Shown piece after piece: positions 2,869 through 58,265 of a DNA stretch of 64,000 nucleotides. The DNA lies in NCBI GenBank assembly GCA_030704615.1, contig CM060733.1, positions 70,556,001 through 70,620,000 of the forward strand, in the 5' to 3' direction. The notes under the pieces were generated by a model. It was not told where the DNA came from. It saw nothing but the letters and a program-made list of their open reading frames with translations, and searched no databases. The DNA comes from Takakia lepidozioides (taxonomy: Eukaryota > Plantae > Bryophyta). A program made the position numbers and the translations under genes. Positions within the stretch are counted from its first letter, which is position 1; each line of letters starts with the position of its first letter.

Positions 2869-3483
2869 CTATCCCAAGCAGTGTGGACATAACCAATCTC
2901 CATCAGGAACCCTCTCAAGAGGTGGTATCAAGCATCCCATGTGCCAACCTCTTGAGCATCGATCACTCACCAGCATAGTGGCGGCACCACGAGCATGCCC
3001 ACATAGCATGCAACGCAATCGTGCAGGTACCACTGCAAGGTTGGGATCTATCCTCTCATCCACATGTGGAAGGTGACATGGCGCACAATTACGCACATGC
3101 TCCTTCCATACCATGCCATCTCGACCCTCCAGAATCAACACTCCTGAAGGCAACACCTCCCTGACCCTTACAATCACACGTCCTGCTGTGACATCCAAGG
3201 TCGTAGGCGCTGTCTGCTGCAGATACACATAGTCCCCAGGGTGGAAACGCCGAACACTTGGCCGATATCCCCCTCCACGTATAGTGACATACATCAATGT
3301 GTCTCGGTGTTGGGCAATAGCAAGATTCTCAAAAGCCATATGCATGACTCTCTTGAACAATTCTGCCTGATGGGCACATGTTTGTGTCCACACATCCGGA
3401 TCATCAAGGTTGAGGACTACTGTAGCCTCCCTGCGAATAGATGCAGGCAAATCCGGCTCTCGGCCAAAGAGAAGGAAATATGG
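2869..3483 (-). pseudogene. Integrase C-terminus plus PHD finger
   Basis: PYFLLFGR integrase tail, then CMLCG...ML(V)SDRC...WHMGCL.PPL..VP.GDWLCPHC (C4HC3 with one Cys changed to Ser). Confidence 0.88.
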
Positions 3484-4326
3484 CACTACAACAGATCGCG
3501 GTATTTATGACTGTATATATGACTATTCTGCAATCATAAACGGTACATATGACTTCTATGACTGTAAGTCGTGCAAACCAAGTGAATACAATGAGTATAG
3601 GATGGTACGGTCCGGATAATTATAGTCAGATGAACCAAGTGATATCTCTCACTGCAGTCATATATACCATACTACAGTCGCCGCTGCCGCGCCACGTGGC
3701 GAGGCGCAATTGATTAAAAAAATTAAATTAAATTTTTTTTATTAAAAAAAAACAATTGTCAGACGCCTTGTCACACCGCATTGTGCCAGGTGGCATAATG
3801 CATTTTATAATAATGAAAAAACCACATGGCAGCCCATCTAGGGTACCACGTGCTATCCCTAGCTCGCCTACTAACCCTAGGGCCATCTTATCCATTTGAT
3901 TGTACTTAGAAGAGTTTGAACCTGCAACCTCTTTACTATAAGAATTATAGTTCACTACCTGCTAACCAATACACCCATTAATCATTCATGTGATCATTTG
4001 GTGTTTTAATTGTATTATACACACCAAATTACAAAATCTCCAGTAGTCATCATGACTATGTAACCTCATCCATGTACATTGTAGTCATGGAAATGACTAT
4101 GAATGGTGAGCTAAATTTGGTCAATTGCCGTTGACCAGCCTTCCGCCATTCCCAAGCCATGTAGTCATACAGACGACTACTTAGATAGTCATTTATATAA
4201 CTACACTCGTATGAACGACTGCGGGAGGTCAATTTCATATAAAAACATGGTGCAGTCATGGTCAAAGTCAAGAAAACCATGACTACCACGGTTTGGCAGT
4301 CATAACTACCGCGATATGTTGTAGTG
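3484..4326. mobile_element. Non-autonomous CACTA (En/Spm) element inserted in the integrase
   Basis: TIRs CACTACAACAGATCGCGGTA and TACCGCGATATGTTGTAGTG. Near 3-bp TSD (TGG / TGA). ATGACT/AGTCAT subterminal repeats. Removing it restores ...SFSPYFLLFG. Confidence 0.88.
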
Positions 4327-4329
4327 TGA

Positions 4330-4800
4330 TGAGAAGGAGGCAAGTGACGCTTGCTTGCTGAACCTGTAGCTAATGGCTAACCAAGGTACTTGAAGATCTC
4401 AATCTCCTAGGTGTCCCTTTTACAAGCCATACTTGCGCAAACCCCTCTTCACTGTCTGAACCACTCTCTCTGCCAAGCCATTGGCCTCAGGATGATCCCG
4501 AGAAGTGGTACGGTGGTCTATCAAGGCTTTATCACATAAAGGCTGAAACTCCCCCAAGAACTCTTTCCCTTCGTCCGTGAGTTTCGCAGCTGGAGCACCG
4601 AATCGGCTAAGCACACGATCCAGGAATGCATACGTAGCCCCCTCACTAGCCTTGTCAGGCAATGGAACCAACTCAATCCACTTGGAGAAGTGCTCCACCA
4701 TCACCAACACATACCTGTGGTGGCGCATCGTCAGTGGCAACGGCCCTGCGAAGTCAAGACTCCACCTGTAGCCCAATCCCATGATGGGTAATGGATGCAA
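4330..4800 (-). pseudogene. Integrase catalytic core (rve)
   Basis: WSLDFAGP...VEHFSKW...LTDEGKEF...HPEANGLAER (D-D-E triad). Confidence 0.9.
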
Positions 4801-5915
4801 CTATGGTGTAGGGGCGTTGAATGAAGCACGCACCCTGTCACACACCATGCACATAGCCACGAATTGTTGCACCTCTGTTTGCATACCACGCCACCAATAC
4901 TGCCCCTGCAGTAAACTATGAGTGCGTTGCACTCCAAAATGCCCCAACTCCTCATGGGCACGCTGTGTTGGGTGAGGCACGATCCTCACTCGACCATCCT
5001 CCCACACTCGAAGCAGGTGTATCCCCTCCCACTTGAACCTCTTGGCTCGTTGCAGGATCCGATCCCTCTCCTTGGCAGTCACACTAGCTGTCGTGTCTCC
5101 AGTGCGGAGGTAGTCCAACACAACCGAATCCTCATGTATATCTCTGGCACCACCTGGCTCATCACTAGCCTCAGGGTCCTCAGACACTCCATCTACAATC
5201 ATCCCTGTTGTAGGTCCAATCTGACCTCCCGATGCCAAGATACACAAAAAGGCAGATGCATGCCATCCCGACACCATCTCCTCGTCCGTCTCACCATGCC
5301 ACCGAGCTCCAGTGTCATCCTGTTGGCTCGTGCATGGATTGCGACTCAGTCCATCCGCATCCCTATTGACCAAACCCGGTCGATGCGTAACCTGAAAGTC
5401 ATACTCATGGAGTATAAGTGCCCACCGTGCAAGCTTCCCCGTAAGCTTGTCTGACTCCATCAACCACTTGAGTGGCTGGTGATCCGTGACAAGGGTGAAG
5501 AGATTGTCGTATAGATAGCACCTGAAGTGTGCCACGGCCCACACTGCAACTAAGCACTCCCCCTCACACACGAGCTATACTTAGACTCTGCAGCGTTGTT
5601 TGAGCGGCTAGCATAAGCCACTACAAACTCTCTTCCCTCATCATCCACCTGTGTGAGCACCGCTCCAAGCCCCAGCATGCTCCAATCTGTATGCAACTGA
5701 AAAGGACGCCCCCTGATAGGTCGTCTCAAGATGGGCGCCGAGGTCAACCTCGCCTTGAGCTCTTGAAAAGCTCGCTCTTGCTCATCTTCCCACTGCCGCT
5801 CTTGGTCTACCTTGGTCAGCTTGGTTAGAGCCTTTGCAATAGCACTAAATCCCTTGACAAACCGTCTATAGTAGTTTGTCAACCCCATGAAAGCTCGAAC
5901 ACATCTATGGGGCAT
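4801..5915 (-). pseudogene. RT connection, RNase H and integrase HHCC zinc finger (frameshifted)
   Basis: FMGLTNYYRRFV; HTDWS.LGLGAVL; E.LVAVWAV.HF; VTDHQPL; ADGLSR; HEELGH...CMVC. Confidence 0.88.
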
Positions 5916-6667
5916 GGAATCTGTGCAATGGCCTCTACCTTAGTCTGCTGCACCCCCAATCCTCCAGGATATATCATGTGGCCCAGATACTCAATCTGGT
6001 TGTGGAAGAACTGGCACTTCCCCGGATGTAATTTCAATTCGTGCGCTCTCAAGCGCTCAAACACCACCTGAAGGTGTCTCTCGTGCTCCTCCATCGTAGC
6101 ACTAAAGATGATGATGTCATCTATATAGCACCGAGCAAAGTCCACCCCTGCTAGAATCCTGTCCATGACTCTCTAGAATTCTGTAAGAGCGTTCTTAAGC
6201 CCGAATGGCAAGAACCGCCACTGATATAGGCAATCCTTCCCGTGCTCATTGATCCCCCAGAATGTCGTCTTCTGCTTGTCCGCCTCCTTGATCGGCAACT
6301 GGTGATATCCGGACCGCAAGTCTAACGTGCTAAAGACCTTGGCATGCCCAATGGCATCAAAGATCTCCTCAGGTGTGGGCATGGCATACTTATCGGACTT
6401 GGTCTGATGATTTACAGGCCGGTAGTCACCGCACATACGTCTCTCCGTCCAATTGCCATAGACATCCTTCTTGGCTGGCATCACCGTGGCTAAACCATAC
6501 TCTCCACCAGAGAGCTCCACCAAACCAGCCTCCCAGAGATCTTGAGTCCTCATCTGAATCAAAGACCTCTCTATGTCACTGTATTTGTAGGGTCTCCGAA
6601 AGATTGGCGTGTCGGTGGCCAACTCAATACGAATCTCCTGACCCTTCAGTGCTCCCAAATCCTTCAA
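5879..6667 (-). pseudogene. Gypsy reverse transcriptase
   Basis: RMCGDYRPVN, FSTLDLRSGYHQ, LPFGLKNA, YIDDII. One in-frame TAG at 6173-6175. Confidence 0.93.
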
Positions 6668-6826
6668 ACTAAAGGCAAAGCAATTCCTGTAAGCCCTCAG
6701 GATCCGCCGTATACGTCATCTCTCTCCTCCAGTGACAATGGGTCCAATGTCAGGCTCCCAATTGCCCTCCGTAACTGCAACCTTAAGTCCAGCAGACTTA
6801 GAGGTAGAGGACGCGTCCCGTGGTTG

Positions 6827-8125
6827 CTATGCCACAACCTCTTGAGCAGTACTCCTTGCCTGCTTAGTCAATGACAAGGCCTCATCCTGCCCCATCATCT
6901 CATCCTTGAGGACCTCCTCAACCCGAGAAGAATCCCCAACCTCATCCATCACAGCCGCCTTGGCTGCCAACTCCCTCTGAACCTCGAGCACCTCCCATGT
7001 GTGCCATGGATGTCTACACCCCGTGGTCCTCACCGGCTCGCCCCCACTCACTGCCTGTACCACCTCGGTAGGCAGAGAGACCGTTAAAGGAAGTGCACTC
7101 CGCACTCTACGTTGCTCAGCCATAGCCAAGCTGATAATCCAGGTCAAGCAATTTAGATCCATCACTTGCCCCAACACCTGACGATGTGATGCCTCAAAAA
7201 GAGAAGGCACCGCCGTGGTCCCAGTGGAAAAACCCATAGCCCGCTCTCGCTCGTCGGCATTAGGCTCCACTAACTGCTGCAACTGAGCATCCCACAGGAG
7301 GCCAGGTCCACTATCCCAGAAAGCATGCGATCATGGGAAGCTGAGCAGTGTAGGTAGTGTTACTCGTGGTCGACCCACCTTGTTGACTACTGCCAAAGGC
7401 GGACGGTCATCGTGTCTCACACCCTGAGACTGCCTCCCCGTGTCCAAGATGTTATCAACTGTGAGGTGTGTTGGCCGCTGCATCCCATCAAATGCACGCT
7501 TGAGCAGTGCGGGTGGCATCAAGTTAGTCCACCATAGCCGTGGACGATGAGCCCGTGACCCCACTGTAGCTGCATCCAGCAACACTACTGACCCAAGCCA
7601 CGACCAGACTTGATGCACACTGGCCATCACCCTGGCCCGAGAATCGCCCATCACTGGCACATTCTCCAAGATGTATGCTGGAGATACAGCTTGATGAAGC
7701 TGTAAGTGGCGCAAAACCCGCACCATCTCCCAAAACAGACCCGACCTCGAGTCTCACAATCCATTGTCATGCCCGGCTGATCAATGCCCTTGGCAGGGCC
7801 AACCTGCCACTACTAGATCAATGGAGCCAACCCGCTCCAAATCCTGCGCCCCCAGCAACGAAATGTCTGCTGGCAAGGCCTGCTGATATCCACAAACTGC
7901 AGACACCGACAACAATTCAGGGTACCGCTGCACCAAGTGAGCACCATGGTGTAGGGAGACGCGTCGTGCAGTCTCATCCCTCTCCACATACAGGTAACGC
8001 CAAACTCGTACACCTGCCTGTAGAACAGCAGCCAATCCGGTGCTGATCCCGCCAAACAAATCCAGAAGGCAAATGCCTTCATCTGGACATTGCCACACGA
8101 TTGGTGTGGTGTCCAATGGAGACAA
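6827..8125 (-). pseudogene. DNMT3-like C5 cytosine DNA methyltransferase domain within pol
   Basis: Motif I LDLFGGISTG; II YVERD; IV DLVVAGWPCQG; GL*DSRSGLF; VI YILENV; VIII LLDAATVGSRAHRPRLWWTN; IX/X ERERAMGF...RQVLG. All are in the RT reading frame and broken only by TGA/TAG stops. Confidence 0.9.
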
Positions 8126-8436: not shown

Positions 8437-9267
8437 TCACAAGGAGCTGCACACGCCAGCCCTCCCCTGACTGCCATCCAGGCCTATAGGAAGCTGACTC
8501 CTCCCAAAAATCAAGGTGAAGCCCATGGGGTACAACACTGCCCCACCAACAATGACATTGTACGAGACCGCATTTGTCACAATGGCCTTGGCTCTCATCA
8601 CTGAGCCATCTAGCTCACGCCATGTCATGCCCCGAGCCTGCTCTGATCCTCCCAGAGATGTCTGTATCTGGAAAGGGCACGGCTCCATATCCGCCTCCGT
8701 GAGGCCCAAGCCTGCAATAGCAGCTCTGTTCAACATCAATGGCTGAGCTCCCGAGTCCAACAAGACCCGTAGTGGCCGGTACCTCTTGCCTACCGGTCCA
8801 CTCAAACAGAAAATGTCATCCTGGTTGTCTAACATGACAACTCCAGGTGTCACCATGGCGCGCTCAATGGTTGGCCTAGCTGGTAGCTCCATCAACCTGG
8901 CAGCTGCAGCTTGCCATGGCACCGCCATGGCAGTCTTGACCCTCACATCTGAGGATCCCTCCGGCACTACACCTCCCACTATCTCCGCAGAAGATGAAGT
9001 AACCTCCCCACTCTCACAAAGTGTAGCTGCCAGCCTGAATACCTCAGCTGGTCTTACCCCCGGCGTTGCAATCATGGTAGCCGAGAACAATGGAGCCTGG
9101 CACACAGTTGTGGCCACCCCCAACAGCACACTAGCTGCCGTAGCCTTGGCAACAGTAGGTAGTGGTGCTGCCTGTGTAGCTCTCCCCAATGGCATAGTAA
9201 CCTCCGCCTCGGTAACAGTCGGGCGAGAACTAGGTGCCATGGACGGCGTCGACACTGTATCTGCCAA
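8437..9267 (-). pseudogene. Retroviral-type aspartic protease with upstream linker
   Basis: VLLDSGA catalytic motif followed by the YNVIVG flap-like motif. Confidence 0.75.
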
Positions 9268-9550
9268 TGTGAATGACTAAGGAAGCCTGGCTTGATGGCT
9301 TGCCTCCCCACGCTGTGGATCCAACTCCACCTCTGCACCCCGTGGCTCAGGAACTCGTGCTGCTCCTCGAGTCACTGCCATAGCTGACTCCACTTGCACT
9401 AGTGGTAGTCCTGCCCCGCACATAGTGGTAGTGGTAGTGGGAAGCACAACATTTGGAAACCATTTCATTTATAAACAAAATTTGTACAACACAAGTTTTT
9501 TTTTAATTTAATTTTTTTAATCAATTGCACCTCGCCACGTGGCGCGGCAG

Positions 9551-9829
9551 CTGTGACTGGCTGTGTGAAACTGTGACGGGCTGTGACTGGTTGTGACGAC
9601 TGTGACGGGCTGTGTTGGCTGTGTCGGCTGTGACGACTGTGTTGGCTGTGTTGGCTGTGTCGGCTGTGACGGGCTGTGATGGCTGTGTCGGCTGTGACGG
9701 GCTGTGTAACCCCTCTCTACAGTGCGCTGTTATCACCCCTAAGGCTCCTGTTGGTCTCAGTCTGTGCAAAAATTAAGGGTACTCCTCAGATCCCGTAAAA
9801 ATGTCTAAGTCCCTGACAGTCCTCTAACA
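9551..9829 (-). repeat. Truncated 3' LTR (second LTR family) with GGCTGTG(AC) microsatellite
   Basis: Minus-strand PPT GAGAGGGGAAGGGG(TAA) precedes TGTTAGAGG at 9829. Homologous to the LTR starting at 59504 (+). Confidence 0.75.
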
Positions 9830-9868: not shown

Positions 9869-12238
9869 TTACTGTTTGGGATTAGCAAACCTTTGTGAGT
9901 GAGCACCCTTCTGACGTTGAGAGTCTCGTGAAGGACTTTGTGTGCGAGCCCGAGGTCTGCCACTGGTTGACGGAGATGATTGAACACTACCTGGATATGT
10001 AAGGCCCTCTGGAGGCTGATATCGAGGTAATCTTTCAGGCATAGGAGACCCCCGTCGCTTCTTTTCTTCCATCTGAATTGCATAGTCTTCTCCCATGTCA
10101 AAAGAATCCCTCGAAGAAACAGTTGTATCAGAATCCTCATCGCCTCTCAGGTGTTTTGGTTGTCGAACTTTTGGTGGAATCCTCTGGGGCATACAATGTT
10201 GTCCTACCATGTCTGGAAGTTTATATTTTAAAACTTGGTATAAACGCTGAATTGCAAAATTGGTGAAGACACTGAGCTCCTTGTCTGTCCAGGTGAGTGG
10301 GGTACCAATGACTTGTGACTTGTTCAAGTATTTCCATGCCACATGTGCCTTAGAGAAAATATCATCAATGCCGAATTTCTGTGTTGACAAATTGTTCCAG
10401 GCTGCCTGAAACCATGAACGAATTTGACAATCATTTTGCATCATAACTTTTGGCTCATATAGGTACATATGAGGTGGCACTGAAGGTAAGACCCAATGAT
10501 CCCCACTGGAATAACTCAGAAAGCGCGCTTGCATTTTTTGCTGCTCAATGTGATAACGTACCAGAAAACAAGCAGCGTAGTATAATTCACATCCCATGAC
10601 AATACTCGCTACCTCCTTGGTCTTGGTATAAATGAATCCATGTACAACTTGGAAGACAATTAATTCCCTCAACATTGTACCTGCCTCATGCCAGTATTGT
10701 GCAAAGTGATGATCTTCAATTGGTCGATTGTTCGGAAGAACTTTAGTCCTAGTTGCCACTGGCAGCCAAATGCGCATGATTTGGTAGTAATGTGCAAATG
10801 ACTGCGGAGGACTAAATTCTTTCCAAGCCAAAATCCAACATGATGGGAATTTGGTTGAAGGGCAGAATCATAGCCCTACTGTACTCCCTTGCAGCTGGAG
10901 TTTTAGGTGGGTTAAAAGCAGCATTGCCCCATACCTCAGACTGTGGTGGCTGTGGTGTAGTTGTAGTAACAACAGGGTCAGCTATTGGCACAGTGACTTG
11001 CTGTGATGTTGGTGGCACTGGCTCTTGTACCATTGGCATCTCCTGCACCTCCTGTGAAGAAGACTGAAAAGCTAAAGTTCTCGCTTTTAAATAAGAAGCC
11101 ATTAGCTGTTCATCAGGTACACAGACTCTCTTGTCGATATTTGAAGTGAGGTCCTCCACTTGAGTCTGCAGGCCGTCTATATCCTCTTGTAACTCCGCTA
11201 TCCTACTATAGACATTGTCTATAGTAGTTGTGGCAATGTTCTGCACTTGCAGCCTGAGCTCATTCATCTCGCTTTGGGTGAGCTTTTGTGGTGCTTTGCC
11301 CTCCATGGCCCTTGTGCTAACCAGACCTGCATAAGGTGGTTATCCACCAAGTTGCTTGTGGTTCCTCTGAGAGTGTGCTCCTCTCTTTGTTTGTACACAT
11401 CTAACTGCTGTTGTAAAGCCTCCATGCGCTTCGCATGAGGTTCAACCAAATTCGCATAGGCAGCAGCCAGATTATTGGCTTCCTTCCAAGCTTTGTTAGC
11501 CACAGAGAGTTCATTTCTATTGGCCATGACCGTTTGTTGCAACTCCAGGATGTGCCTCTCTTGGTCAGCTTCAACCTGCCTGTATTGCTTGAAAGTATCC
11601 TCATTGCGACAGATTGTATTCTTCATGTCGACAATGAGTTTAATTTGCTCAACATTCTGTGCTTCTGCCTTCATACTTTTTTCCGCTTGACTGTTTATTT
11701 CTATTGTAGATTGGTCAAGCATAGTTGTGAGTGTAGCACATTGGATGGCCATCCTGTCATGCACTGTCTGCAACTCCGTATGTAGTGCATTTACTTGTTG
11801 CAACTTGCTTTCATGCTTCACCTGCATTTGGTATAGCTGTTGCTTATGTGCTTCGTGCAACTGGTCTTGCGCGAGGTCTGCCTCAATCAATTGTTCCTTG
11901 GTCAATTGCAAAGCCGCTTCTGTATTTTCCAAGTCCTGCTGCATCTTGAGAGTGACCTCCTCATCGACCTTGTTTGCACACTCAGTGGCTAGTCGAGCCT
12001 CAAACTCCTTCCTGAGTTCCTCTCTCAAGGCTGTCAATTGGGTAGTTGGAACATGGGATTTGACATAAGTCCCCAACAAATTAAGTGTCCTGCCTATGGA
12101 ACTCATCAGCATTGCCTGTTGAGGGTCATCATGGTGAGGTTGCTGCTGTTCCTCCTGATCCTCAACCGTGTGATGTCTCACGAACCATTCAGGCCATTGT
12201 CCCACCGGATTTTCTTCCTGAACCACATCATCCATCAC
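9869..12238 (-). pseudogene. Large accessory ORF (coiled-coil N-terminus, unknown C-terminal domain) just upstream of the PPT of an LTR element; two frameshifts
   Basis: Three overlapping ORFs (324, 164 and 320 aa), with a Q/E/L heptad-rich N-terminus, ending ~25 bp before the PPT. Confidence 0.6.
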
Positions 12239-12761
12239 CGGTGCTGCAGTGTCTTGACATTCTACCTGTGGTATAGTGTGAATTACATTGGTATAGACAA
12301 TGTGTGTGGGCTTTCCAGATTCCCTCTAGACAGCCCTTCACACAAGCATCAAGCTGCTGTATTATCTGCCCATCAGATAGATCCCAACAGGGCCAGAGAT
12401 TTCATAAGCTGTTGAACGGAGGTGCAGGGACTATGTTTATAATGTTCCTGAAGAGGGTCGCTCGCTAATGAGAATACTAACACTGACATGCTCTCTTTGA
12501 GCACTGCAACGTGAATGTATCAAAGAGAGCCAGCCTGGTCTTCATGGAAAACACCTCTAGACTCCAGATTAACCTTGAGACGGGTACTTTTTAGCCTACA
12601 AATAGCTTGCCAACTGCGTTAAGAAGCGTGATGCCGTGCTAGCGTGATGCCGTACTCATAAGATGTTTTTTGTCAGGTCCTCACCAACTAAGAATCATCA
12701 TCTACTTATAAAGTCTGCAAATGGTCATAGCTGAACATAAATGTCGTTATATTATTGATGG

Positions 12762-18254: not shown

Positions 18255-18790
18255 TTGTTTGACAATTGTGAAATTATCAACAAGGGTTTGAGGTACAAGC
18301 ATAGTATCTGGCTAAAGCTGAAACTGAAGGGCGGCATGAGTATGAAGGACCTCTTTGTGGGTTGTGTTTACATGCCCACAGATGGGTCCCTTAGTGCTGA
18401 TGCAGACAAAGCCTTCGAAGATGTAAAGCTAGTCTGTGCTTCGTTCCTTGCCAAAGATTAGGTGATCTTATTGGGTGATTTCAATGCCCGGGTGGGTAAA
18501 GGTCTCCATCAGGATGATATCATTGGGCCTTTTGGTGAGGACGAGCTGAACTCTAATGGTAGACGGTTAATTAATTGTCTGGAAGAGCTTCAGCTTATGG
18601 CCTTGAACAATAGGGCAAAAGGTGAACAAGTGCAGTGGACTCGTGAGAAATCCCAAACTGGGGAACGTTCCATTGTGGATTATATCATAATGGACAAAAA
18701 TTTGTTTCCCCAGAGTGCCAATGTGTTGATCGACAAAACTAATATTGGTACCTCTGACCACTTCCTGTTTTGGACTGAGATCAAAAGGTG
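18255..18790 (+). pseudogene. LINE AP-endonuclease fragment
   Basis: VGCVYMP...ILLGDFNARVG...NSNGRRL...WT...SIVDYII...TSDHF. Confidence 0.85.
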
Positions 18791-18959
18791 TTTTCCCAAC
18801 CCAAAAGATCTATGTGAAGTCGAAAGAGCAGTGGATTCTTGGGATATAATGTTGGCAGGATTTACCAAGCATGGGTGTGGTAGGAATGCTTTGGAGACCT
18901 ATGAGCAAATGATGGGCAAAGGGTACCACCAACAGTCTGGAGGCTGTGATGGCTGCATA

Positions 18960-21310
18960 CGTGTGGGGAAAAAGAAGCGAAGTGATAGAGTGTGGCTAGA
19001 TTTCAGGCACAAGATTACTTATGATTCCACGTGAATCAATAGCTACTAGCAACCTGCATGGGTAGATGGTCAACTGGAAGTTGCAGCAGCAGCAACACAA
19101 TTGATAAATTCAAGCATTGCTAATGAAGGCACCTTCTTCAACACATTTCACCCTGTTTTTCCCTCTTATCAGAATCGGCCCTGAATTTTCATGTTGAATT
19201 CCGCAAGTTAGCTTGTTGAGTGAACCTTCGATAGTTTGGAAGGACTGACTGATATTGCCAATGTGACAACAAAGTATCCAGAAACAGGTAACAAAGACAA
19301 GGAAACCAGGAGCTGTGGAATGAATACTTTTCTGACCCAAGTCAATGGTGGGACAATCAAGGCAAAAGGCAAATGCCTATTGATTTCAGAGAGTAGAAAA
19401 TGCAATTGAGTAGAGGAACTAGTGTGATAAGTTGAGTTGGGTGTTTCCTAGAACAATTATAGGCTTGCATTGTTAGTGACTAGCAGCAAGGCAAGGGTGA
19501 ATGTATGATTTGTGCGGAGGCATGGATAGGTGAAGGAGCAGGGCAGTTGCAGGATTGGGTGGATCAAAAGCGGCACATGTTGGCTTGTTCTTAGCAGGCC
19601 GTGAGGGCACCTTCTTCTTCAACCTATTTCAGCCTGTTTTGCCCTCTTATCAGACTCGGGCCTGATATGCATATTGAAATATGTAAGTTAGCTCGTTGGT
19701 GCAAGAGAGAGAGTCAGCTTGGTCTTAGCAAGCCGTGCTTTGTTCAAAGCTGGAATTGTACCTAATGTCATTCTGAACACTGCCTGGCAGCTCTCGAAAA
19801 GGGGAAAGAGGTCGACATGTTTGCAAAATGAAGGCCTTGCTTGGTGCCTGCAGAATCCATGGCAATGTGGAGATGGTTGAACGTGCGGCATGAAGGTACC
19901 TTCTTCAACACATTTCACCCTGTTTTTCCCTATTGCCAGAGTAGTCCCTAAATTTTCATGTAGAATTTTGCAAGTTAGCTCGTTCGTGATATGAGGTTGC
20001 ATGAGTTTTATACCGATCTTTCATGATGGTGGGACAACCGCAATCACCAGGTGTGGCTTTTCTTAATGTACGATGTGAAGAAGTTCGTCCATCCTGCAAA
20101 GGTGGGCTCTTGACTCCTGTGAGTACCATGATTTAGTATTCTTCCTAATGTTTACAAGGTTCTCGGGGAGAGTCAGCTTGAAGGTCTTAGCAGGCCGTGT
20201 TTCAATCGTTGCCTGCTCTACTGCACCGTGGTGGTTCTCAAAGACCAATCCGACATTACCTGACTACAGACAAACAACACACACAAGAGGTCATTTTGGG
20301 TTGATGGTCGGTCAAATCCTCCATGGGTCAAGGACAATGTGGTGAGGGCACGTTTCAGCCTGTTTTTCCCTCTCATCAGACTTGGCCCTGAGATGCATGT
20401 TGAATTCTACATGGGTGATAAGTACGGTTGGGTGTTTGCTGGAACAATTGTAGGCTGTCATTGTCAGCCGCTAGCAGCAAGGGAAGGATGTATGCATGAT
20501 TTGTGTAGAGCTTGGATAGCTGAGGGAGCAGGGGTAGAGTGTGGCCGGTCCAGATTCATCCAAGAGGGCGGGTCTTCAAGCTCACGATTACCTATAATTC
20601 TCTGTGGATCAATAGCTGCAAGAAACCTGTATGGGTAGATGGTCAACTGGAAGCCGCAGCAACAACGACACAATTGATAAAATCAGGCACTGCTAATGAA
20701 GGCACCTTCTTCAACACATTTTCACCCTGTTTTTCCCTCTTATCAGAATTGGCCCTAAATTTTCATGTTGAATTCTGCAAGTTAGCTGGTTGAGTGAACC
20801 TTTTGATATTTTGGAGTGACTTTGACATGGTACTGCCAATGTGACAACAGGGAAGTATCCAGAAACAAATAACAGCTGAGACGAGGAGAAGCTGTGGAAT
20901 GAATACTTTTCTGACCCCAGTCCATGGTGGGACAATCGAGACAAAAAGGTGAATGCCTGTTGGATTACAGAGAGTAGTTGATGCAATTGACCATAGTGAT
21001 AAGTTGAGTTGGGTGTTTCCTAGAACAAATCTAGGCTGTTATTGTCAGGTGCTAGCAGCAAGGCAAGGATGTATGCATGATTTGTGCAGCGGCATGGATA
21101 GCTGAAGAAGCAGGGATAGAGTCTGGGTCCAGATTCATCCAAGAGGGCCGGACTTCAAGCTCCAGATTACCTATGATTCCATGTGGATCAATAGCTACAA
21201 GAAACCTGCTGCATGGGTAGATGGTCAACTAAAGGTAGCAGCTGCAGCGGCACAGTTGATAAAATCAGGCACCTCAACCATGACCACAGCTTCTGAAAGA
21301 GGATCAAGAG
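18960..21310 (+). repeat. Repeated ~600-bp captured module with exon-like VWVQIHPRG...KITYDS...KPAWVDGQ; partial copies, also at ~16650-16830
   Basis: Near-identical blocks at ~19005-19210, 20400-21000 and 21000-21310, and inverted at 27518-28252. Confidence 0.75.
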
Positions 21311-21312
21311 AG

Positions 21313-21600
21313 GTGGCTGAACGAGATGTGGTGTTTTGGAATGCCATGATTGCGAGGTATGTGCAGCATGGGTATGGGATTTAGGCTTTGGAAATCTAGG
21401 AGCAAATGATGTGGGAAGGGATGAAGCAAGACTAGGTCATGTTCATTTGTGTTTGTAATATGCATATGGGAGCCTAGCAGCCCTGGGAAGGGGCAAAGAG
21501 GTTCATGGTGACATTATCAAAGCTGGAATTGTACCTGATGTCATTCTGAACATTCCCCTGGTGTACATCTACATCAAATGTGAGCCTGGCAGCCCTGGCC
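21313..21600 (+). pseudogene. PLS-class PPR fragment inside the CACTA element
   Basis: AERDVVFWNAMIARYVQHGYG...[20 protein letters not shown] with stops. Confidence 0.8.
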
Positions 21601-22726
21601 AGAGAAGAACATGAAGAGGGCTTACAATTTCATTCGCCCGGGCGTAGACATTGCTGGCAATGAGAAGAAGGCAGGAAAGCAGTTCAGTGTTCCTAGCATG
21701 CATGTGGAGACGCCGTGTAGAAATTAGGCTCAGACTTTTATCATGGCTGGATTTTGTTGACAGTGTTCCAGCACTTACTCTCTGGGATTCTATTTTATTT
21801 TGTGGAGCTTGAATCCCCAATGGTACTTCTTTCACTACACTAGTGGTATGTGTTCCTCTAGTCATGTTCCTAATCACTTGCACGCCACTGTAATAGTGGT
21901 ATATAACTTAAAATTGTAAGAGTAGCCAAATATACACAATTGCCTCCATTACCACTCCTGTAGTGGTATAAGTAATCACATATATATTACTGTATTAGTG
22001 GTATGAATTCCTCCAATGGTATTTTTAATCACTTACACACCACTCTGTTAGTAATCATTCCAATCCATAGTTCCCACTCAGAGAGACACCATGGATGATT
22101 CAAACAGCTTACATACCACTATGTGGGTAATCATTCCAATGACCTGCTGAGAGATGTCATCCACTCACATAACCACGGTTTGAGTGATATTGTATATTCT
22201 CAGTTTTCATAGAATGACTCTGTCAGTCATTTCGCGATCACTCAACAAGTGGTTTCGGAAGTCATTGAATTTTTCACTCCATCCATTTCGTAGCACCGAC
22301 ACATGACACGTGTCCATGCTGAGAGTGTCGTCACTTGTCAACATAATCTCCAATATCATCCACGGATCACCGACTTCCACGTGTCCACTAGAAAACGGAA
22401 GTGGTTACTTTACCACTATGACACGTCAGTTTACCACTGTGACACGTCAGAAGTGGTTGGTTTACCTCAGTGACACGTCAGAGTGGTGAGTTTACACGTC
22501 ACAGTGGTTAATTTACCACTGTGACATGTCAGCGAACAGGCGGACCCGGACGTGAGTGGTTCGAACCACTGTCCTTAACCACTGATGCCACGTAATGTCT
22601 TTTACCACTCACTTGTCCTAATCCACTGGTTCTTCATCACTCTGGGGCCAGAGTGGTTTAGTGTCTTTTAGCACTCAAAATGAGTGGTTAACAGAGTGGT
22701 TATTCCGCATTTTTCTTCTAGTGCCC

Positions 22727-23641
22727 TACAAAGAGAGAGGATATGCCAGGGTTCGTAAGTGTAGGATTGTTGGCGATTCACGAATACCGTGTAGTTGGGA
22801 GCTAATAGGGAAAACACCCAAAGCCAAAAACCCAGAAGTTGCGGTGATGCAACATAACAACGAGTCTTTGGCAGTGAGATTCCAACATGCGGGAGTCATT
22901 ACATACTTTGCTGTGAATGCAACTGAGCTAGAGGGTTATACTCACTGGTGGAATGGGGGAACAATAAGTGATATGTTGAACCTTGACAAAAAATGGGGCA
23001 GTGATTGGGACAACAAAGAGATTGAAAGACAACCAGGAACGGAAGAAGAGTATCAGGCAACCGATCGCTTGGTTCGTTTCCGGAGAGAGCGCAGTAAACT
23101 TGCATGGGCACTCGTGAGCATTATGGATGTTGTCCATAAGAACCATGTCAAACACAACAACTTGTCTCCCAACAACATCTTGTTGCATTTTCCACATGAC
23201 ACCGAGGAGATTAAGATTGGAGTGTGTGATTGGGGGTTGGCCACCTCAACGGAGATACGCAAAACCTCGTCGTACCAGTTTGAAAACAAAGACAAAATAA
23301 GGCAGGCTCTCAAATGTAGATGGTGGGTGGATCCTGCAATTGCCATGGCTTTTAACAAGGAAAGCAGTCAGGTGGATGACACACCACAAATGCAGACACA
23401 AGTCATGACCTCGGAGGCCTTTACAGTTGGAAAGATAGCGGTAAGAATAAATGGCGGCAATTCGTATGATGCCAATCTTTTCAAGGATCAATACACAGGA
23501 CTATGTTGGAATTCTGCCCTACGAAGGTTATATAATAGCACGGTCCCGTCTGAGAGGCTCACATTAGCCCAAGTAGTGTTCCGCTTCATGAACAAACCAT
23601 TCAGTTGGGTAGAGCCCCAAGACGTCTACAGGATGGAATAG
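22727..23641 (+). pseudogene. Ser/Thr kinase-like domain, 3' half
   Basis: Gly-loop-like ERGYARV, ELIGK, HNNLSPNNILLH catalytic loop (N in place of D), IGVCDWGLA. Confidence 0.82.
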
Positions 23642-24069
23642 ACCATAGTTTCATACATACTAGTTTTGTGGGCGTAGTATAGTACAGTTTCCAAAACAAA
23701 AGTGAATTTTGATCATGCATGTACTGAATAAAATTTTATCATTGTAAATATTAAATTGCATATGAGCGAGTCATACATGTGTCATTTCAATGCAATTGTT
23801 TGTGTACCCTCTCAATGTTTATATATTCCAATGTTCCATGTTTCGATTCCTCCGCTAACCACTCCTCAAATGAAGAACTCAAAATTTCCATCATTCTTGA
23901 AAAAACTGACATATTTAGCCTTCCTTAGACATTTCATGTGTGGAACTAATAGTTATAGTTGGGTGGGACGATGATTCAGGCTGCAACAAATCGTCCAGTG
24001 AACATGCTATGTGAAGGTCTGGTTTGAATAATCATTCACCCTCACAAGCATTTGATCCGGTTGACATCA

Positions 24070-24436
24070 AACCCCGACCATATCTTGCAGCATCACTAGG
24101 GGACTCAAACTCTCTCCGAAGAGGCAAAGCCGGGGGGGTTGGAAACCTTTATTATCTTTTTCCTTTTTATTTTTCCTCTCTCCCATATCCTCTAAGGTGC
24201 AGAAAATATCCAATCTTTCCCCGCCAATATACTACCGTAGGCTCAAAGTCCTTCCAAGGCTTGTTACATTAATAGAACAATCCACCTTGCACCGACCCTA
24301 TCTTGCAGCATCACTAGGAGATTCGAGCCCAGTCCGGTGGGGCAGAATGGCGGATTTGAAACAATTTTTATCTGGGGACTCGAACTCTCTCCGAAGAACC
24401 AGAACCGGAGGGGTTTGAAACCTTTATTATCTTTTC
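24070..24436 (-). repeat. Inverted copy of the 35.2-37.6 kb tandem array units
   Basis: Contains TATCTTGCAGCATCACTAGG and CTCTCTCCGAAGA, the reverse complement of the array unit. Confidence 0.85.
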
Positions 24437-27400
24437 CACATCTGGTACAATTCTAGCTTTGGCGATGCAACCATGCACCTCTTTGCCCTTTTCCAGGGCT
24501 GCCAGGCTTGCACACACACTGCAAACGCACACAAACGCAATGTGGTTGCGCTTCACCCCTTCCACCATCATTTGCTCATAGGTCTCCAAGGCCTCCATCC
24601 CGCCCCCCTGCAGTGCATACCCTGCAAGCATGGCGTTCCATGACACCAAATCTCGTTCAGGCGTATTGTTGAACTCTCTCCACGTCCTCAATGCCCACAT
24701 TTGACATATATGTCCCCGAGGGTGTTGTTCATAATCACATCTGGTACAATTCCAGCTTTGACGATGCAACCATGGACCTCTTTGCCCTTTTCTAGGGCTA
24801 CCAAGCTTGCACAAGCATTGCAAACGCACACAAACGTGATATTGTTGCGCTTCACCCCTTCCCCCATCATTTGCTCATAGGTCTTCTAGGCCTCCATCCC
24901 ATGCCCCACTGTGCATATCCTGCAAGCATGGCGTTCCATGACACCAATCTCGTTCAGCCATATTGTTGAAAACTCCCTCCGCATTTGGCATACATGTCCA
25001 CAGGGTATTGTTCAAAATCACATCTGGTACATTTTCAGCTTTGACGATGCGACCATGGACCTCTTTGCCCTTTCCAGGGCTGCCAGGCTTGCACACGCAC
25101 TGCAGACGCACACAAACATTATGTGGTTGGGCTTCACCCCTTCCTCCATCATTTGCTCGTAGGTCTCCAAAGCCTCCATCCCGCGCCCCTGCTGTGCATA
25201 TCCTGCAAGCATGGCGTTCCATGACACCACATCTTGTTCAGCCATATTGTTGAACACTCCCTCGGCATCCTCAATGCTCCCACAATTGGCATACATGTCC
25301 ACGAGGGTATTGTTCAGAATTCTGGGATGCAACTTGTCATCTACAACAAAGGTATGCACCCTGTTGCCAACCTCAATGCAGCAGCGACCTGGCTCCTTTC
25401 TAACCCCTCTGACCTTCATCATTCTTCTCACCTTTGCAGTATCATCCCACTTGCCAGCTGCAGCATAGATGTTTGATAGCAACACATAAGGCATCTTGTT
25501 CACAATCTTAAGTGCCTTCATAATGGTGAGGGGCAACCTTACAAGGTGAGACTAAGCCACCCACTTGAGGATAGATGTTGCCACACGTTCAGCCATCTCC
25601 ACATTGCCATGGATTCTGCAGGCACCAAGCAAGGCCTTCCACACCACAACATCTGGATTGATTGGCATTTTATTAATCAAGTCCACTGCCTTATCCAGTT
25701 GTCCCGCACGTCCAAGAAGGTCCACCCGCAGCCAAAGTGCTTTACTGTCGGAGTGACACCATGATCTTGACTCAGGGAATCGAAGTAGCATCTTCCTTCA
25801 TTGAGTAGGCCAGTGTGGCTGCATGCAGAGCGAACACATATAAAGGTGATATTGTCCACCTTCAAGCCGTTCTTTTCCATTCCTTCAAATAGTTGCAGGA
25901 CCTCCGTATGACAACCATGCTGGGCATATCCTGCGATCATCGCATTCCATGACACCACATTTCGTTCAGCCATATTGTCAAATACTCCCTTTGCATTCCC
26001 ACATCCCTGCTATGCATACCCTGCAAGCATCGCGTGCCACGACACCACATCTTGTTCAGCCATAGTGTTGAAGACTCCCACCGCATCCTCAATGCACCCA
26101 CATTTGGCATACATGTCCACCAGGGCAGTGTTCAAAATGACATCTTGTACAATTCCAGCTTTGACGATGTCACCATGGACCTCTTTCCCCTTTTCAAGAG
26201 CTCCCAGGTTTGACATCTTGACAAGGGTGTTGAGAAGCAAAACACTTGGCGTGAATCCACTTTGGATAATGTGAGTGTGCACGTGCTTTCCAGCTTCCAG
26301 ACCTTTCATCGTGATGCACTTAAGCAAGAGGCAGACAACCGTATCTGAATCTACTGAAATGCCTCCTACATTTGGCATACTTGTCCACGAGGGTATTGTT
26401 CAGAATGACATCTGGTACAATTCCAGCTTCCACGATGCAACCATGCACCTCTTTGCCCTTTTCCAAGGCTGCCAGGCTTGCAAATGCACACAAACGTGAT
26501 GTGGTTGGGCTTCACCCCTTCCCCCATCATTTGATCATAGGTCTCCAAAACCATCATCCCACATCCCTGCTGTGCATACCCTGCAAGCATCGCGTGCCAT
26601 GACACCACATCTTGTTCAGCCATAGTGTTGAAAACTCCCTTTGCATCCTCAATGCACCCACATTTGGCATACATGTCCACCAGGGCAGTGTTCAGAATGA
26701 CATCTGGTACAATTCCAGCTTTGACGATGTCACCATGGACCTCTTTCCCCTTTTCAAGAGCTCCCAGGTTTGACATGTTGACAAGGGTGTTGAGGAGAAA
26801 AACACTTGGCGTGAATCCACTTTGGATAATGTGAGTGTGCATCTGCTTTCCAGCTTCCAGACCTTTCATCTTGATGCACTTAAGCAAGAGACAGACAAAC
26901 GTATCTGAATATGCTGAGATGCCTCCTACATTTGGCATACATGTCCACGAGGGTATTGTTAAGAATGACATCTGATACAATTCCAACTTTTGCGATGCAA
27001 CCATGCACCTCTTTGCCCTTTTCCAGGGCTGCCAGGCTTGCAAATGCACACAAACGTGACGTGGTTGGGCTTCACCCCTTCCCCCATCATTTGATCATAG
27101 GTCTCCAAGGCCACCATCCCACGTCCCTGCTGTGCATACCCTGCAAGCATCGCGTGCCACGACACCACATCTTGTTCAGCCATAGTGTTGAAAACTCCCT
27201 TCGCATCCTCAATGCACCCACATTTGGCATACATGTCAACAAGGCAGCGTTCAGAATGACATCTGGTAGAATTCCAGCTTTGACAATGTCACCATGGGCC
27301 TCTTTTCACTTTGGATAATGTGAGTGTGCACTTGCTTTCCAGCTTCCAGACCTTTCATCTTGATGCACTTAAGCAAGAGACAAACAAATGTATCTGAATA

Positions 27401-56486: not shown

Positions 56487-56796
56487 TACATCACCATTTT
56501 CTTCGGTTGCGGAACCTATTACCGTGAAATTCGGCGCCATTTTTACAGATGTCGGTCGGAATTTCCATGAGCGCAAGAGAAAATATCATGAGCACGGCTC
56601 CCAAAACTTCAATTTCAGCTTCAAACAAAAAATATTATATTATTATTGTTCTGACACATTCCATTAAAATAATGTTTTTAATGTTTTTTAATTCCAAAAT
56701 TTGAACTTCTGCTCATGAAAACCGATTGTCTTATTACTCCGCTCATGCCGCTCATGCTCATGAAATAGCTAACCTCAAGTCTAGCCCCGCGAGAAT

Positions 56797-58080
56797 CCTA
56801 TCCATGATCCTCTGAAACTCTGCAGGAGCATTCTTCAACCCAAACGGTAAGAACCGCCATTGGTACAAATAATCTTTCCCATGCTGGTCAATCCCCCAGA
56901 ATGCCGTCTTCTGCTTGTCAGCCTCTTTGAGTGGCAACTGGTGGTAACCAGATCGGAACTAAATGTACTAAACACCTTCGCATGCCCAATGGCATCAAAG
57001 ATTTCCTCCGGAGTTGGCATGGCATATCATCGGACTTAGTTTAACGATTCACATGGCGGTAATCCCCACACATCCTTCTTTCTGTCCAATTGCCATAGAT
57101 ATCTTTCTTAGCTGGCATCACCGTTGCCGAGTCATACTCCCCGCCTGACAACTCCATCAATCCAGCTTTGAACAACTCCATAGTCTCCGACTAGATCGAA
57201 GACCTCTCCATGTCACTATACCTGTAGGGCCTTCGAAAAATTGGTGTGTCATGCCAAATCAATACGAATCTCCTGGCCCTTCAAACTCTCGAAATCCTTC
57301 AAACCGAAAATAAAGCAATTTCTATAAGCCCTTAGAAATCGTTGGATCCTCAGTCTCTCTCCTCCGGTGACTGTAGGTCCAACATCGGGTTCCCAATGGT
57401 CCTCAGTGATTGCAACCTTGGGTACACTAGCTTGGAGATAGGAGACGCATCTTTTGGTTGCTAGATAGCAACCTCTTGGGCCTTGTCCGCCCACCCTGAC
57501 TGTGGCGTAGCCTCAGTATATGGCTCTCCCCACTCCTCATATTGTTGCTTAAGAGATCCAATGACTCTCTCTTTGCGCATCTCATCCCACATTTGCCATG
57601 GGTGTTTATACCCCATGATCCGGTGCTCGCCCCCACTCACTGCCTCAACCATCCCGGTTGGCAAAGAGGATACAATATCCAATGGAAGTGCAAAAGTAGC
57701 CATCAATGCTTGCAATCTCCGTTGCTCAGCCATGCATAAGCCAATGACCCATGTCAAGCAATTTAGATCCATTGCTTAACCCAACACCTGTCGGCGTGAT
57801 GCCTCTGACAGAGCTGGCACAGCTGTGGTGGCCGTGGCAAACCCCATTGCCCGCTCTCTCTTATCCGCATTGGGCTCCACCAATTGCTGTAGCGCACTAT
57901 CCCAAATCAACCCTGGACCATTGTCTCAAAAAGCATGAGACGAGGGAAAGCCCACAAGTGTAGGCAAGGCCGCACGTGGTTGCCCCACTTGATTAACCAC
58001 CGCCAAAGGTAGACGGTCATCATGTCGCACCCTCTGTGGTTGCCTCCCTTGGTCCAAAATGCCCTCAACCGTGAGATTGA
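56797..58080 (-). mobile_element. Second, diverged DNMT-gypsy copy (DNMT C-terminus, linker, RT N-terminus)
   Basis: MPTPEEIFDAIGHAKVFST; RAYRNCF; MDLNCLTW; EPNAD.RERAMG. Colinear with ~6150-7460. Confidence 0.88.
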
Positions 58081-58265
58081 GCGGAGGCAGAGGGCCAAAT
58101 CGAGTGCCCCAAAAAAACTACTTTCCTATCGTTGAGCTTGTGCTCTTGCAAAAAAAGAATATTATTGGAGACAAGCAAGGAAGAGGCCCAACTAGGAATT
58201 CTACTCCTCTTAGGCACGGATGCTTTGGAGCCTATTCCCTTAATGTTCCATGATGACAATTTCCA
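58080..58265 (-). pseudogene. LINE AP-endonuclease N-terminus fragment
   Basis: SWNIKG...ILFLQEHKL. Confidence 0.65.

What the first reader, a model, noticed from the sequence alone, without database searches (positions are those of the whole stretch)
2869..3100. The same retroelement pairs a methylation writer with a PHD chromatin reader on its integrase
Seen: a C4HC3-type PHD finger ends the integrase, in the position where chromoviruses carry a chromodomain. Established: host DNMT3 enzymes read unmethylated H3K4 through a PHD-like ADD domain. Inference: the element may rebuild a reader-plus-writer pair, with histone-guided integration and pre-methylated cDNA.
Basis: partly seen in the sequence, partly recalled or inferred. 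Interest (0 to 1): 0.7.

Follow-up and report, generated by a model that had tools for sequence, protein, structure and literature searches.

The report
PHD-tipped integrase of Gypsy-DNMT3 retrotransposon
This is a broken copy of an abundant plant-lineage jumping gene whose integrase ends in a PHD zinc finger that likely grips histone tails, and which also carries a DNA methyltransferase, but a conserved stop codon between them likely makes the two separately dosed tools and not one linked reader-writer machine.

Summary
Observation largely right. A PHD finger (2878-3012, minus strand; Pfam E 1.3e-8) ends the integrase of a dead Ty3/gypsy copy that also encodes a DNMT3-like domain (7118-8077). 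In this copy the third zinc ligand is Ser and an 846-bp CACTA-ended insert splits the integrase; both defects are private to it. The element belongs to a large green-lineage clade that contains a Klebsormidium pol (Gypsy-DNMT3 kind). Of 107 relatives scorable for both domains, 95 have both, 10 only the DNMT, 2 only the PHD. Both domains are under purifying selection, yet each has been lost separately. The PHD has no methyl-K4 cage and resembles readers of unmodified H3; in the land-plant clade it also lacks the acidic K4 contacts. The ADD analogy fails for this host: plant DNMT3 has no ADD. Algal relatives place the DNMT next to the integrase and often add a Tudor-like barrel and an adenine-methyltransferase-like fold. 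No histone binding or enzyme activity was tested.

The parts
2869..3018 (-). PHD finger ending the integrase (Cys1 at 3012, last Cys at 2878, stop 2869-2871); third zinc ligand is Ser in this copy
   Evidence: Pfam PF00628 E 1.3e-8; nearest solved sequences CHD4, KDM5A/B PHD1, ATXR5, PHF21A, BAZ2A/B, UHRF1; ligand state
3037..3483 (-). Integrase C-terminal part: long helix and SH3/Tudor-like barrel (integrase CTD)
   Evidence: AlphaFold model, mean pLDDT 76.5; barrel matches Tudor/SH3 folds at Z about 7-8.7 and foamy virus integrase 4bac at Z 6.6
3484..4329 (.). 846-bp non-coding insert with CACTA terminal inverted repeats, private to this copy, splitting the integrase
   Evidence: inverted 30-mers 3484-3513 / 4297-4326; joint 3483-4330 in contigs of other copies
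4330..4965 (-). Integrase H2C2 zinc-binding domain and catalytic core (one in-frame stop)
   Evidence: Pfam Integrase_H2C2 E 3.7e-14, rve E 6.2e-12
5400..6715 (-). Reverse transcriptase and RNase H (stop and frameshifts)
   Evidence: Pfam RVT_1, RT_RNaseH, RT_RNaseH_2; family profiles
6821..6829 (-). Conserved in-frame amber stop with CAR-YYA context between DNMT and RT; likely programmed readthrough signal
   Evidence: context described for tobacco mosaic virus in PMC2194720 (passages)
7118..8077 (-). DNMT3-like C5 cytosine methyltransferase domain; catalytic PC, ENV and RxR motifs present, three premature stops
   Evidence: family profile 334 bits over 327 of 329 positions; intact relative L001 best matches DNMT3A/B/C, E 7e-8; motifs; stops
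8611..8778 (-). Aspartic protease
   Evidence: Pfam Asp_protease_2 E 0.0065, below the curated cut-off; tblastn with L001 ORF1
8779..9402 (-). Remnant of the gag-protease spacer; similarity to relatives stops near 9402, so gag and the 5' repeat are missing
   Evidence: tblastn and tblastx with L001, L013, L021
2329..2868 (-). 3' untranslated region with short tandem repeats; the 3' terminal repeat probably begins near 2333 (weak evidence)
   Evidence: blastn patches with L013 and L021, whose direct terminal repeats of about 340 bp start at the matching place
56777..58084 (-). Second, fragmentary family copy (end of DNMT, same TAG context, start of RT); no integrase or PHD
   Evidence: blastn 71-76% and tblastn

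Best explanation
The stretch is the decayed PHD finger at the end of the integrase of a dead Ty3/gypsy copy from a green-lineage clade that also encodes a DNMT3-like enzyme; in working copies the finger likely tethers the integration complex to histone H3 tails, while the methyltransferase likely acts separately, on the element's own cDNA. Shown here: the domain order PR-DNMT-(TAG)-RT-RH-IN-CTD-PHD; conservation and purifying selection of PHD and DNMT; absence of a methyl-K4 cage; a conserved TAG-CAR-YY junction; separate losses of each domain. Inferred: (a) the TAG is read through at low rate, so Gag-PR-DNMT is the abundant product packed in the particle and RT-RH-IN-PHD the rare one; (b) the element's protease releases the domains, so PHD stays on the integrase and not on the DNMT; (c) the PHD binds the free H3 N-terminus (A1/R2), which in algal members probably also senses unmethylated K4 and steers insertions away from H3K4me3 promoters, and in the land-plant clade is probably a weaker or mark-blind nucleosome tether; (d) the DNMT methylates cDNA in the particle. 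The two tools serve one strategy (land in quiet chromatin, arrive methylated) and are co-inherited, but neither needs the other.
For: PHD sits after the SH3-like CTD, as chromodomains do. 116 of 120 listed relatives of the C-terminal part carry Pfam PHD. In 142 intact PHDs, Asp follows the third Cys in 136 and Trp two before the His in 0. Best fold matches of the PHD part are ORC1b (Z 8.8, rmsd 1.2, 51 aligned) and ATXR5 (Z 8.2), both solved with H3 peptide. dN/dS between L001 and L002: PHD 0.06, DNMT 0.11, RT 0.04. L001 has exactly two long ORFs, gag-PR-DNMT and RT-RH-IN-PHD, in one frame around a single TAG; L002 has the same junction. TAG-CAR-YY is exact and in frame in 28 of 40 scorable loci and 38 of 40 when C-to-T/G-to-A decay is allowed; background 0.012 per 95 nt. 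No other letter reached 5% at 6820-6831 in four runs while neighbours varied; the copy's stops at 4801-4803 and 6173-6175 do differ in other copies. DNMT without PHD: the Closterium-like clade (P0158, P0187, P0163, P0165) and P0279/P0309, catalytic motifs kept in five of these six. PHD without DNMT: P0076 and P0218, each nested among DNMT-bearing elements in the integrase tree.
Against: No binding, readthrough, cleavage, insertion-site or enzyme data were obtained. Co-occurrence is high (95 of 107; 26 of 27 loci scorable for both) and no member lacking both was scored, which also fits some functional coupling. In 78 algal-type proteins DNMT and IN-PHD lie in one frame 100-417 residues apart, and some DNMT-before-RT elements have no stop (P0022, P0148, P0174), so the separation by a stop is clade-specific. 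The land-plant-clade PHD has the acidic wall in 2 of 19 and N-terminal acids in 4 of 19, so histone binding may be weak. CpG depletion of the element (o/e 0.53) is no stronger than the whole window's (0.59), so it gives no sign of self-methylation. The Klebsormidium enzyme was inactive in yeast. The TAG could instead be a splice acceptor or mark an internal start, as the Tca2 paper warns.
Confidence: 0.6

Rival explanations
1. ADD-like coupled reader-writer: the PHD targets or allosterically controls the DNMT, so that methylation is laid at or around the insertion site according to H3K4 state.
For: High co-occurrence. In algal-type elements the DNMT lies directly before the integrase in one frame, with an acidic-wall PHD (67 of 93) and often further reader and writer folds behind it. 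The PHD is of the unmodified-H3 class.
Against: No ADD in plant or algal DNMT3. A conserved stop separates the two in the window's clade. DNMTs with intact motifs persist in PHD-less lineages, and PHDs in DNMT-less ones. The PHD stays on the integrase while the DNMT occupies two different slots.
Confidence: 0.15
2. The PHD is a non-histone module: it binds DNA, a host protein or the integrase itself, and has no role in reading chromatin marks, at least in land plants.
For: Land-plant-clade PHDs are net basic (mean +1.6) and lack acidic K4 contacts. A review on atypical PHD targets exists (PMC10124903, search listing only).
Against: The Asp after the third Cys and the C-terminal P..G.W pocket are kept. 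Closest sequence and fold matches are H3 readers. Position equals that of the chromovirus chromodomain.
Confidence: 0.2
3. Passenger domains: PHD and DNMT were captured once and simply hitchhike in a successful clade.
For: All members form one clade, so co-occurrence is largely shared ancestry; losses are tolerated.
Against: dN/dS 0.06 and 0.11; ligands intact in 142 of 151 PHDs and catalytic motifs in nearly all DNMTs across algae and bryophytes.
Confidence: 0.05

Closest known systems
KnitGypsy-Dnmt3 / 'Gypsy-DNMT3' of Klebsormidium nitens (de Mendoza et al. 2018, PMC5890265; abstract, passages and three supplementary files searched; figures and the main supplementary PDF not seen)
   Same: Ty3/gypsy pol with a Dnmt3-like domain under purifying selection; a Klebsormidium pol fragment (P0157) falls inside the family in the RT tree.
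   Different: Text has no mention of PHD, moss or readthrough (0 hits for 'PHD' in text and in the three files; Fig. 4c may still draw one). There the DNMT is said to share the ORF with RT; here a conserved TAG separates them in the land-plant clade. The family extends to Marchantia, Calypogeia, Sphagnum, Closterium, Pleodorina, Haematococcus, Tetraselmis and Cymbomonas.
Chromoviruses (e.g. MAGGY; as described in passages of bioRxiv 2021.11.30.470311 and PMC6673714)
   Same: A chromatin-reader domain at the integrase C-terminus, behind an SH3-like domain.
   Different: Reader is a PHD of the unmodified-H3 class, not a chromodomain for H3K9me; RT and integrase trees place the family apart from the chromodomain-bearing elements included.
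PHD-bearing retrotransposons: REM1 of Chlamydomonas, CR1-like LINEs, Chlamys PLEs, cnidarian PYGO-like fusions (passages of PMC8557442, PMC6673714 and bioRxiv 2021.11.30.470311; the REM1 paper itself was not held)
   Same: PHD as an accessory domain of retroelements in the green lineage is in print and called common.
   Different: Those passages name no cytosine methyltransferase in the same element. Whether REM1 belongs to this clade was not tested.
EpiLTRs and DAM-LTRs (bioRxiv 10.64898/2026.05.21.726589; passages and part 2 of 5 read)
   Same: A reader plus one or two DNA methyltransferases in one LTR element.
   Different: Theirs have a chromodomain, a DIRS-derived DAM and a DNMT4-like enzyme, stated to be distinct from Gypsy-DNMT3. 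Algal members here have DNMT3-like, PHD, Tudor-like and a different-looking amino-methyltransferase fold with no Pfam Dam hit.
Animal DNMT3A/3L ADD domain (PMC12344493 and PMC11244446, passages)
   Same: A zinc-finger reader of unmodified H3 and a DNMT3-type catalytic domain in one gene.
   Different: ADD is adjacent to and controls the catalytic domain in one protein (recalled); here a canonical PHD is on the integrase, more than 1,000 codons and one stop away; plant DNMT3 has no ADD.

Membership tests
PHD finger (C4HC3) | Profile match above the curated cut-off | tested here: met
   PF00628 35.2 bits against 24
PHD finger (C4HC3) | All eight zinc ligands, in this copy | tested here: not met
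   Seven of eight; third ligand Ser. A private lesion of a dead copy
PHD finger (C4HC3) | All eight zinc ligands, in the family | tested here: met
   142 of 151 proteins; 30 of 49 mostly decayed genomic copies
H3K4me3-reading PHD | Aromatic cage with invariant Trp (PMC3241642, passages; its position two before the His is recalled) | tested here: not met
   Trp at that position in 0 of 142, Gly in 131
Unmodified-H3K4-reading PHD | Acidic cluster before Cys1 or acidic wall before strand 1 (PMC3241642, PMC5415848, passages; mapping to positions is mine) | tested here: inconclusive
   Acidic wall in 67 of 93 long-tail algal-type PHDs but 2 of 19 land-plant-clade PHDs, absent in the window copy
Unmodified-H3K4-reading PHD | Binding to H3 peptide | not testable with these tools
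Ty3/gypsy LTR retrotransposon | PR-RT-RH-IN order with gypsy-type RT | tested here: met
   family profile's best solved match is Ty3 Gag-Pol
Ty3/gypsy LTR retrotransposon | Direct terminal repeats | tested here: inconclusive
   About 340-bp direct repeats in L013 and L021; the window copy lacks its 5' end
Gypsy-DNMT3 (KnitGypsy-Dnmt3 kind) | Dnmt3-like domain without rearrangement, inside pol | tested here: met
   Best solved matches DNMT3A/B/C, ahead of bacterial enzymes and DRM; motifs in I-IV-VI-VIII order
Gypsy-DNMT3 (KnitGypsy-Dnmt3 kind) | Same lineage as the published Klebsormidium element | tested here: inconclusive
   Klebsormidium P0157 is in the clade but is a fragment without the DNMT, and the paper's files gave no ids to match
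Gypsy-DNMT3 (KnitGypsy-Dnmt3 kind) | DNMT in the same ORF as RT | tested here: not met
   Same frame but a conserved TAG intervenes in the land-plant clade; met in P0022, P0148, P0174
Chromovirus | Chromodomain at integrase C-terminus | tested here: not met
   PHD then stop in the window; no Chromo hit in 15 family proteins scanned
Chromovirus | RT groups with chromoviruses | tested here: not met
   Separate from the Haematococcus chromodomain elements in RT and integrase trees, few outgroups
DNMT3-ADD reader-writer module | Reader adjacent to the catalytic domain in one mature protein | tested here: not met
   Window and land-plant clade: stop plus RT-RH-IN between them; the whole integrase lies between them in algal types
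DNMT3-ADD reader-writer module | Reader binds and regulates the catalytic domain | not tested
TMV-type stop-codon readthrough | In-frame stop followed by CAR-YYA between two open frames | tested here: met
   Window, second copy, L001, L002, L005, L028, L053 have the full context; one moss-type subfamily has CAA-CCC
TMV-type stop-codon readthrough | Measured readthrough | not testable with these tools
   Needs a reporter or ribosome profiling

The most novel reading that the evidence does not exclude
An old green-lineage gypsy clade carries a self-contained epigenetic kit. Integrase-PHD reads unmodified H3 tails to choose sites; a DNMT3-like enzyme, made at Gag level by a leaky amber stop in land plants or fused ahead of the integrase in algae, methylates the new copy; and algal members add a Tudor-like reader and a second, adenine-type methyltransferase behind the PHD. 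The element would then set the chromatin state of its own insertions, and in high-copy bryophyte genomes contribute de novo methylation to the host.
Probability: 0.25. Interest if true: 0.78.

Novelty: new variant of a known kind. Interest (0 to 1): 0.45.

Why it matters
Each part is in print: DNMT3 in a Klebsormidium gypsy element, PHDs on algal retroelements, chromodomain-plus-methyltransferase EpiLTRs. My ten searches found no text that describes the PHD-DNMT3 pair, its spread from chlorophytes to bryophytes, the readthrough junction or the four-module algal form (bear on this; figures and paywalled papers were not searchable). The family offers natural controls for an open question, namely what retrotransposon-borne methyltransferases and readers are for: PHD-less and DNMT-less sister lineages, and two DNMT positions with different predicted dosage. 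Relatives are annotated in Marchantia, a tractable model. The window copy itself is dead and adds nothing beyond being a family member.

Tried and rejected
No genome was held for the window, so copy number, insertion sites and host DNMT3 could not be examined directly. A viral-contig scan found no relative. The protein atlas was not available for the algal tail. Complex prediction of DNMT with PHD was not available: no verdict. No H3 sequence was held, so no PHD-H3 model was tried. The REM1 paper and the Sanchez and Zhou review were not held. No RNA holder was listed; run X8 is only guessed to be RNA, so expression is untested. CpG o/e gave no signal of self-methylation. Foldseek's top hits to PHF1/UHRF1 Tudor-PHD cassettes were rejected as evidence of a Tudor reader: rmsd about 13, identity 16%, and an SH3-like barrel is the ordinary integrase CTD. 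The stop at 6716-6718, meant as a control, lay near the edge of the stretch and gave no row, so it is uninformative. Tetraselmis gene models P0215, P0217 and P0223 end in a half PHD and were not counted as true losses; P0136, P0075 and P0366 are doubtful. L012 (no DNMT) has a broken RT start and was not counted as a loss. L023 fell oddly in the RT tree, probably an extraction artefact. The direction of the DNMT move is unresolved: the RT tree nests the mid position among upstream ones, the integrase tree does not. A formal independence test was not run: one clade with about four loss events has no power. No tRNA gene in the window. Three look-ups of earlier findings were empty.

Full report
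1. What is at the coordinates. Window 2869-3504 on the minus strand is a 211-codon open frame ending in a Cys/His-rich stretch. Pfam PHD matches residues 165-209 over all 47 profile positions, E 1.3e-8, 35.2 bits against a cut-off of 24. Upstream lie, in order, integrase core and H2C2 domain, RNase H, RT, a weak DNA_methylase match and a protease. This is a Ty3/gypsy pol with an extra domain. The copy is dead. It has stops at 7781, 7754, 7331, 6716 and 6173 in the DNMT-RT frame, further frameshifts, and no similarity to relatives beyond about 9402. The PHD has Ser at the third ligand. An 846-bp insert with CACTA inverted ends splits the integrase. Contigs of four public runs (at most three samples; one may be the window's own source) show that both lesions are private: 13, 6, 1 and 1 contigs join 3483 to 4330, and nearly all depth reads another letter at 2967. 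61,141 contigs of run X1 lay on the 6.7-kb stretch, so the family is very abundant in this organism; depth is not a copy number.

2. The family. A search with the C-terminal frame gave 128 longer proteins; 116 of the 120 listed carry Pfam PHD, with named sources Marchantia, Calypogeia, Sphagnum, Pleodorina and Cymbomonas. A search led by RT-RNase H added Klebsormidium, Closterium, Tetraselmis and Haematococcus (best 120 of 3,794 listed). A search led by the DNMT gave 265 representatives at E up to 1e-30, of which 150 were listed. In an RT-RNase H tree (104 sequences, 445 columns, FastTree) the family is one group (support 0.93) apart from the chromodomain-bearing elements. The window copy groups with a Marchantia protein and locus L052 (0.997), and a Klebsormidium fragment lies inside the family. 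The host is therefore probably a bryophyte (inference). The DNMT of the intact relative L001 best matches DNMT3A/B/C (E 7e-8), ahead of bacterial enzymes and DRM. Catalytic Cys, EN and RxR are kept in nearly all intact proteins.

3. I scored all 368 proteins with family profiles. 53 were not family. In 107 both states could be called: 95 had both, 10 DNMT only, 2 PHD only, 0 neither. The other 208 were fragments or began after the conserved stop. By search: RT-led 19 both, 7 DNMT only, 1 PHD only; DNMT-led 43 both, 4 DNMT only. Of 77 DNA loci, 39 lacked one end and 2 were rearranged; 26 had both, 1 broken copy lacked the DNMT and 9 were undecidable. The loci are redundant and were found with a query that includes the PHD. 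Six DNMT-only proteins are clean losses in two branches (four Closterium-like; P0279 and P0309), and five of the six keep the catalytic motifs; four are doubtful. The two PHD-only proteins run from protease to RT without a DNMT and nest among DNMT-bearing elements in the integrase tree. So the domains do not assort freely, but the pattern is one ancestral pair with a few separate losses. That shows neither independence nor obligate coupling. Both are under purifying selection (L001 against L002: dN/dS PHD 0.06, DNMT 0.11, RT 0.04).

4. What the PHD could read. Closest solved sequences are CHD4, KDM5A/B PHD1, ATXR5, PHF21A, BAZ2A/B, DPF3 and UHRF1. The AlphaFold model (mean pLDDT 76.5) shows a long helix, an SH3/Tudor-like barrel and the PHD. 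The PHD part best matches ORC1b (Z 8.8, rmsd 1.2, 51 aligned) and ATXR5 (Z 8.2); the barrel matches Tudor/SH3 folds and the foamy virus integrase CTD (Z 6.6). The chromovirus remnant in the same window has SH3 then chromodomain, so the positional claim holds. By the published rules (PMC3241642, PMC5415848; passages), K4me3 readers need a cage Trp and unmodified-K4 readers have acidic residues before Cys1 or before strand 1. The mapping of these to positions is mine and partly recalled. The cage Trp is absent in 142 of 142; the Asp after Cys3, recalled as the R2 contact, is present in 136. The acidic wall is present in 67 of 93 long-tail algal-type PHDs, 11 of 30 other short-tail ones and 2 of 19 in the land-plant clade. 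An H3 N-terminal tether is likely; specific sensing of unmethylated K4 is doubtful for the window's own clade.

5. The junction. L001 has two long ORFs, gag-PR-DNMT (1,369 aa) and RT-RH-IN-PHD (1,047 aa), in one frame around a single TAG; L002 has the same junction, with a frameshift in gag. The TAG is followed by CAR-YYA in the window, its second copy, L001, L002, L005, L028 and L053, and by CAA-CCC in a large moss-type subfamily. It is exact and in frame in 28 of 40 scorable loci, 38 of 40 allowing deamination, against 0.012 expected per 95 nt (loci not independent). In 13 aligned junctions of 59% mean identity the TAG is invariant. In the window's own organism no other letter reached 5% at 6820-6831. 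CAR-YYA is the tobacco mosaic virus readthrough context (PMC2194720, passages); the same paper shows that such predictions can fail. If read through, the DNMT is made at Gag level and integrase-PHD only rarely. That suits methylation of cDNA inside the particle and argues against an ADD-like module. The arrangement is clade-specific: P0022, P0148 and P0174 have no stop, and 78 algal-type proteins carry the DNMT between RNase H and integrase.

6. The ADD analogy. PWWP and ADD are features of animal DNMT3; land-plant DNMT3 has a domain of unknown function, and algal and protist DNMT3 none (PMC12344493, PMC11244446; passages). The element cannot be rebuilding a host arrangement; at most it converges on the animal one.

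7. Algal relatives. After the PHD, 60 of 78 mid-DNMT proteins have a Tudor-like stretch and 45 a further domain. A model of P0094 (pLDDT 88.3) folds that domain like N6-adenine methyltransferases (METTL5 Z 13.1, type I M subunit 12.4, M.TaqI 12.3), and it matches a phage DNA methyltransferase family at E 1e-9. Of 50 strong tails, 27 show the SAM-binding motif and 25 a motif-IV-like stretch. The window's clade ends at the PHD.

8. Known work. Gypsy-DNMT3 was described from Klebsormidium (PMC5890265): text and three supplementary files have no 'PHD', but Fig. 4c and the main supplementary PDF could not be seen and may show it. Its DNMT was inactive in yeast, a result the authors call inconclusive. 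PHDs on retroelements are called common in Chlamydomonas. EpiLTRs combine a chromodomain with DAM and a DNMT4-like enzyme (preprint supplements closed). Searches for the pair, for Marchantia or moss members and for the readthrough found nothing that describes them. Six earlier notes of this scan describe the same family in other windows and agree; they are not independent support.

9. Verdict. The pairing is real, old and conserved, and is a variant of a known kind. Chromatin tethering by the PHD is likely; direct reader-writer coupling is unlikely in this clade. The readthrough junction and the four-module algal form are the parts most worth following. Interest 0.45.

Noticed in passing
window 6821-6829 (-); L001 5083-5091; L002 4661-4669: Conserved in-frame TAG-CAR-YY between DNMT and RT, likely programmed readthrough; it would explain why many database proteins of the family start just before RT.
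   Followed up: yes
P0094 residues 356-542 and about 50 related proteins (not in the window): Algal-type relatives continue after the PHD with a Tudor-like barrel and a class I methyltransferase fold with DPFxGxG and SPP/W-F motifs; best fold matches METTL5, type I R-M M subunits and M.TaqI (Z 12-13), PHROG DNA methyltransferase E 1e-9. Present in 45 of 78 DNMT-IN-PHD proteins. Activity unknown.
   Followed up: partly
P0022/L001 type versus P0032/P0037 type: The DNMT occupies two slots, PR-RT and RH-IN; DNMT domains from the two slots form separate groups (21 and 112 sequences, support 1.0).
   Followed up: partly
window 3484-4329: Non-autonomous CACTA-ended element; it holds a 58-bp stretch (3675-3732) that recurs inverted at 9502-9559.
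   Followed up: partly
window 44390-45393 (-): Chromovirus integrase remnant with SH3_Tf2-1 and chromodomain.
   Followed up: partly
window 9440-9500 and 44253-44313: 61 bp identical at 100% at the point where the element's 5' part is lost; perhaps a recent small insertion.
   Followed up: no
window 29079-34708 (-) and 58776-59441 (-): Broken helitron-like replicase/helicase frames (judged by eye).
   Followed up: no
window 18462-28250 and 48400-49020: Clusters of PPR-like gene fragments in direct and inverted repeats, interleaved with a repeat that recurs at 35273-37576.
   Followed up: no
window 22622-23641 (+): 339-aa open frame with protein-kinase-like motifs (by eye).
   Followed up: no
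window 9549-9829 and 59504-59856: Related tandem 10-mer repeat regions in opposite orientation, each next to gag-like frames (9869-12325 minus; 60387-61938 plus); probably another retroelement family.
   Followed up: no
window 37639-38140: Assembly gap (run of N).
   Followed up: no
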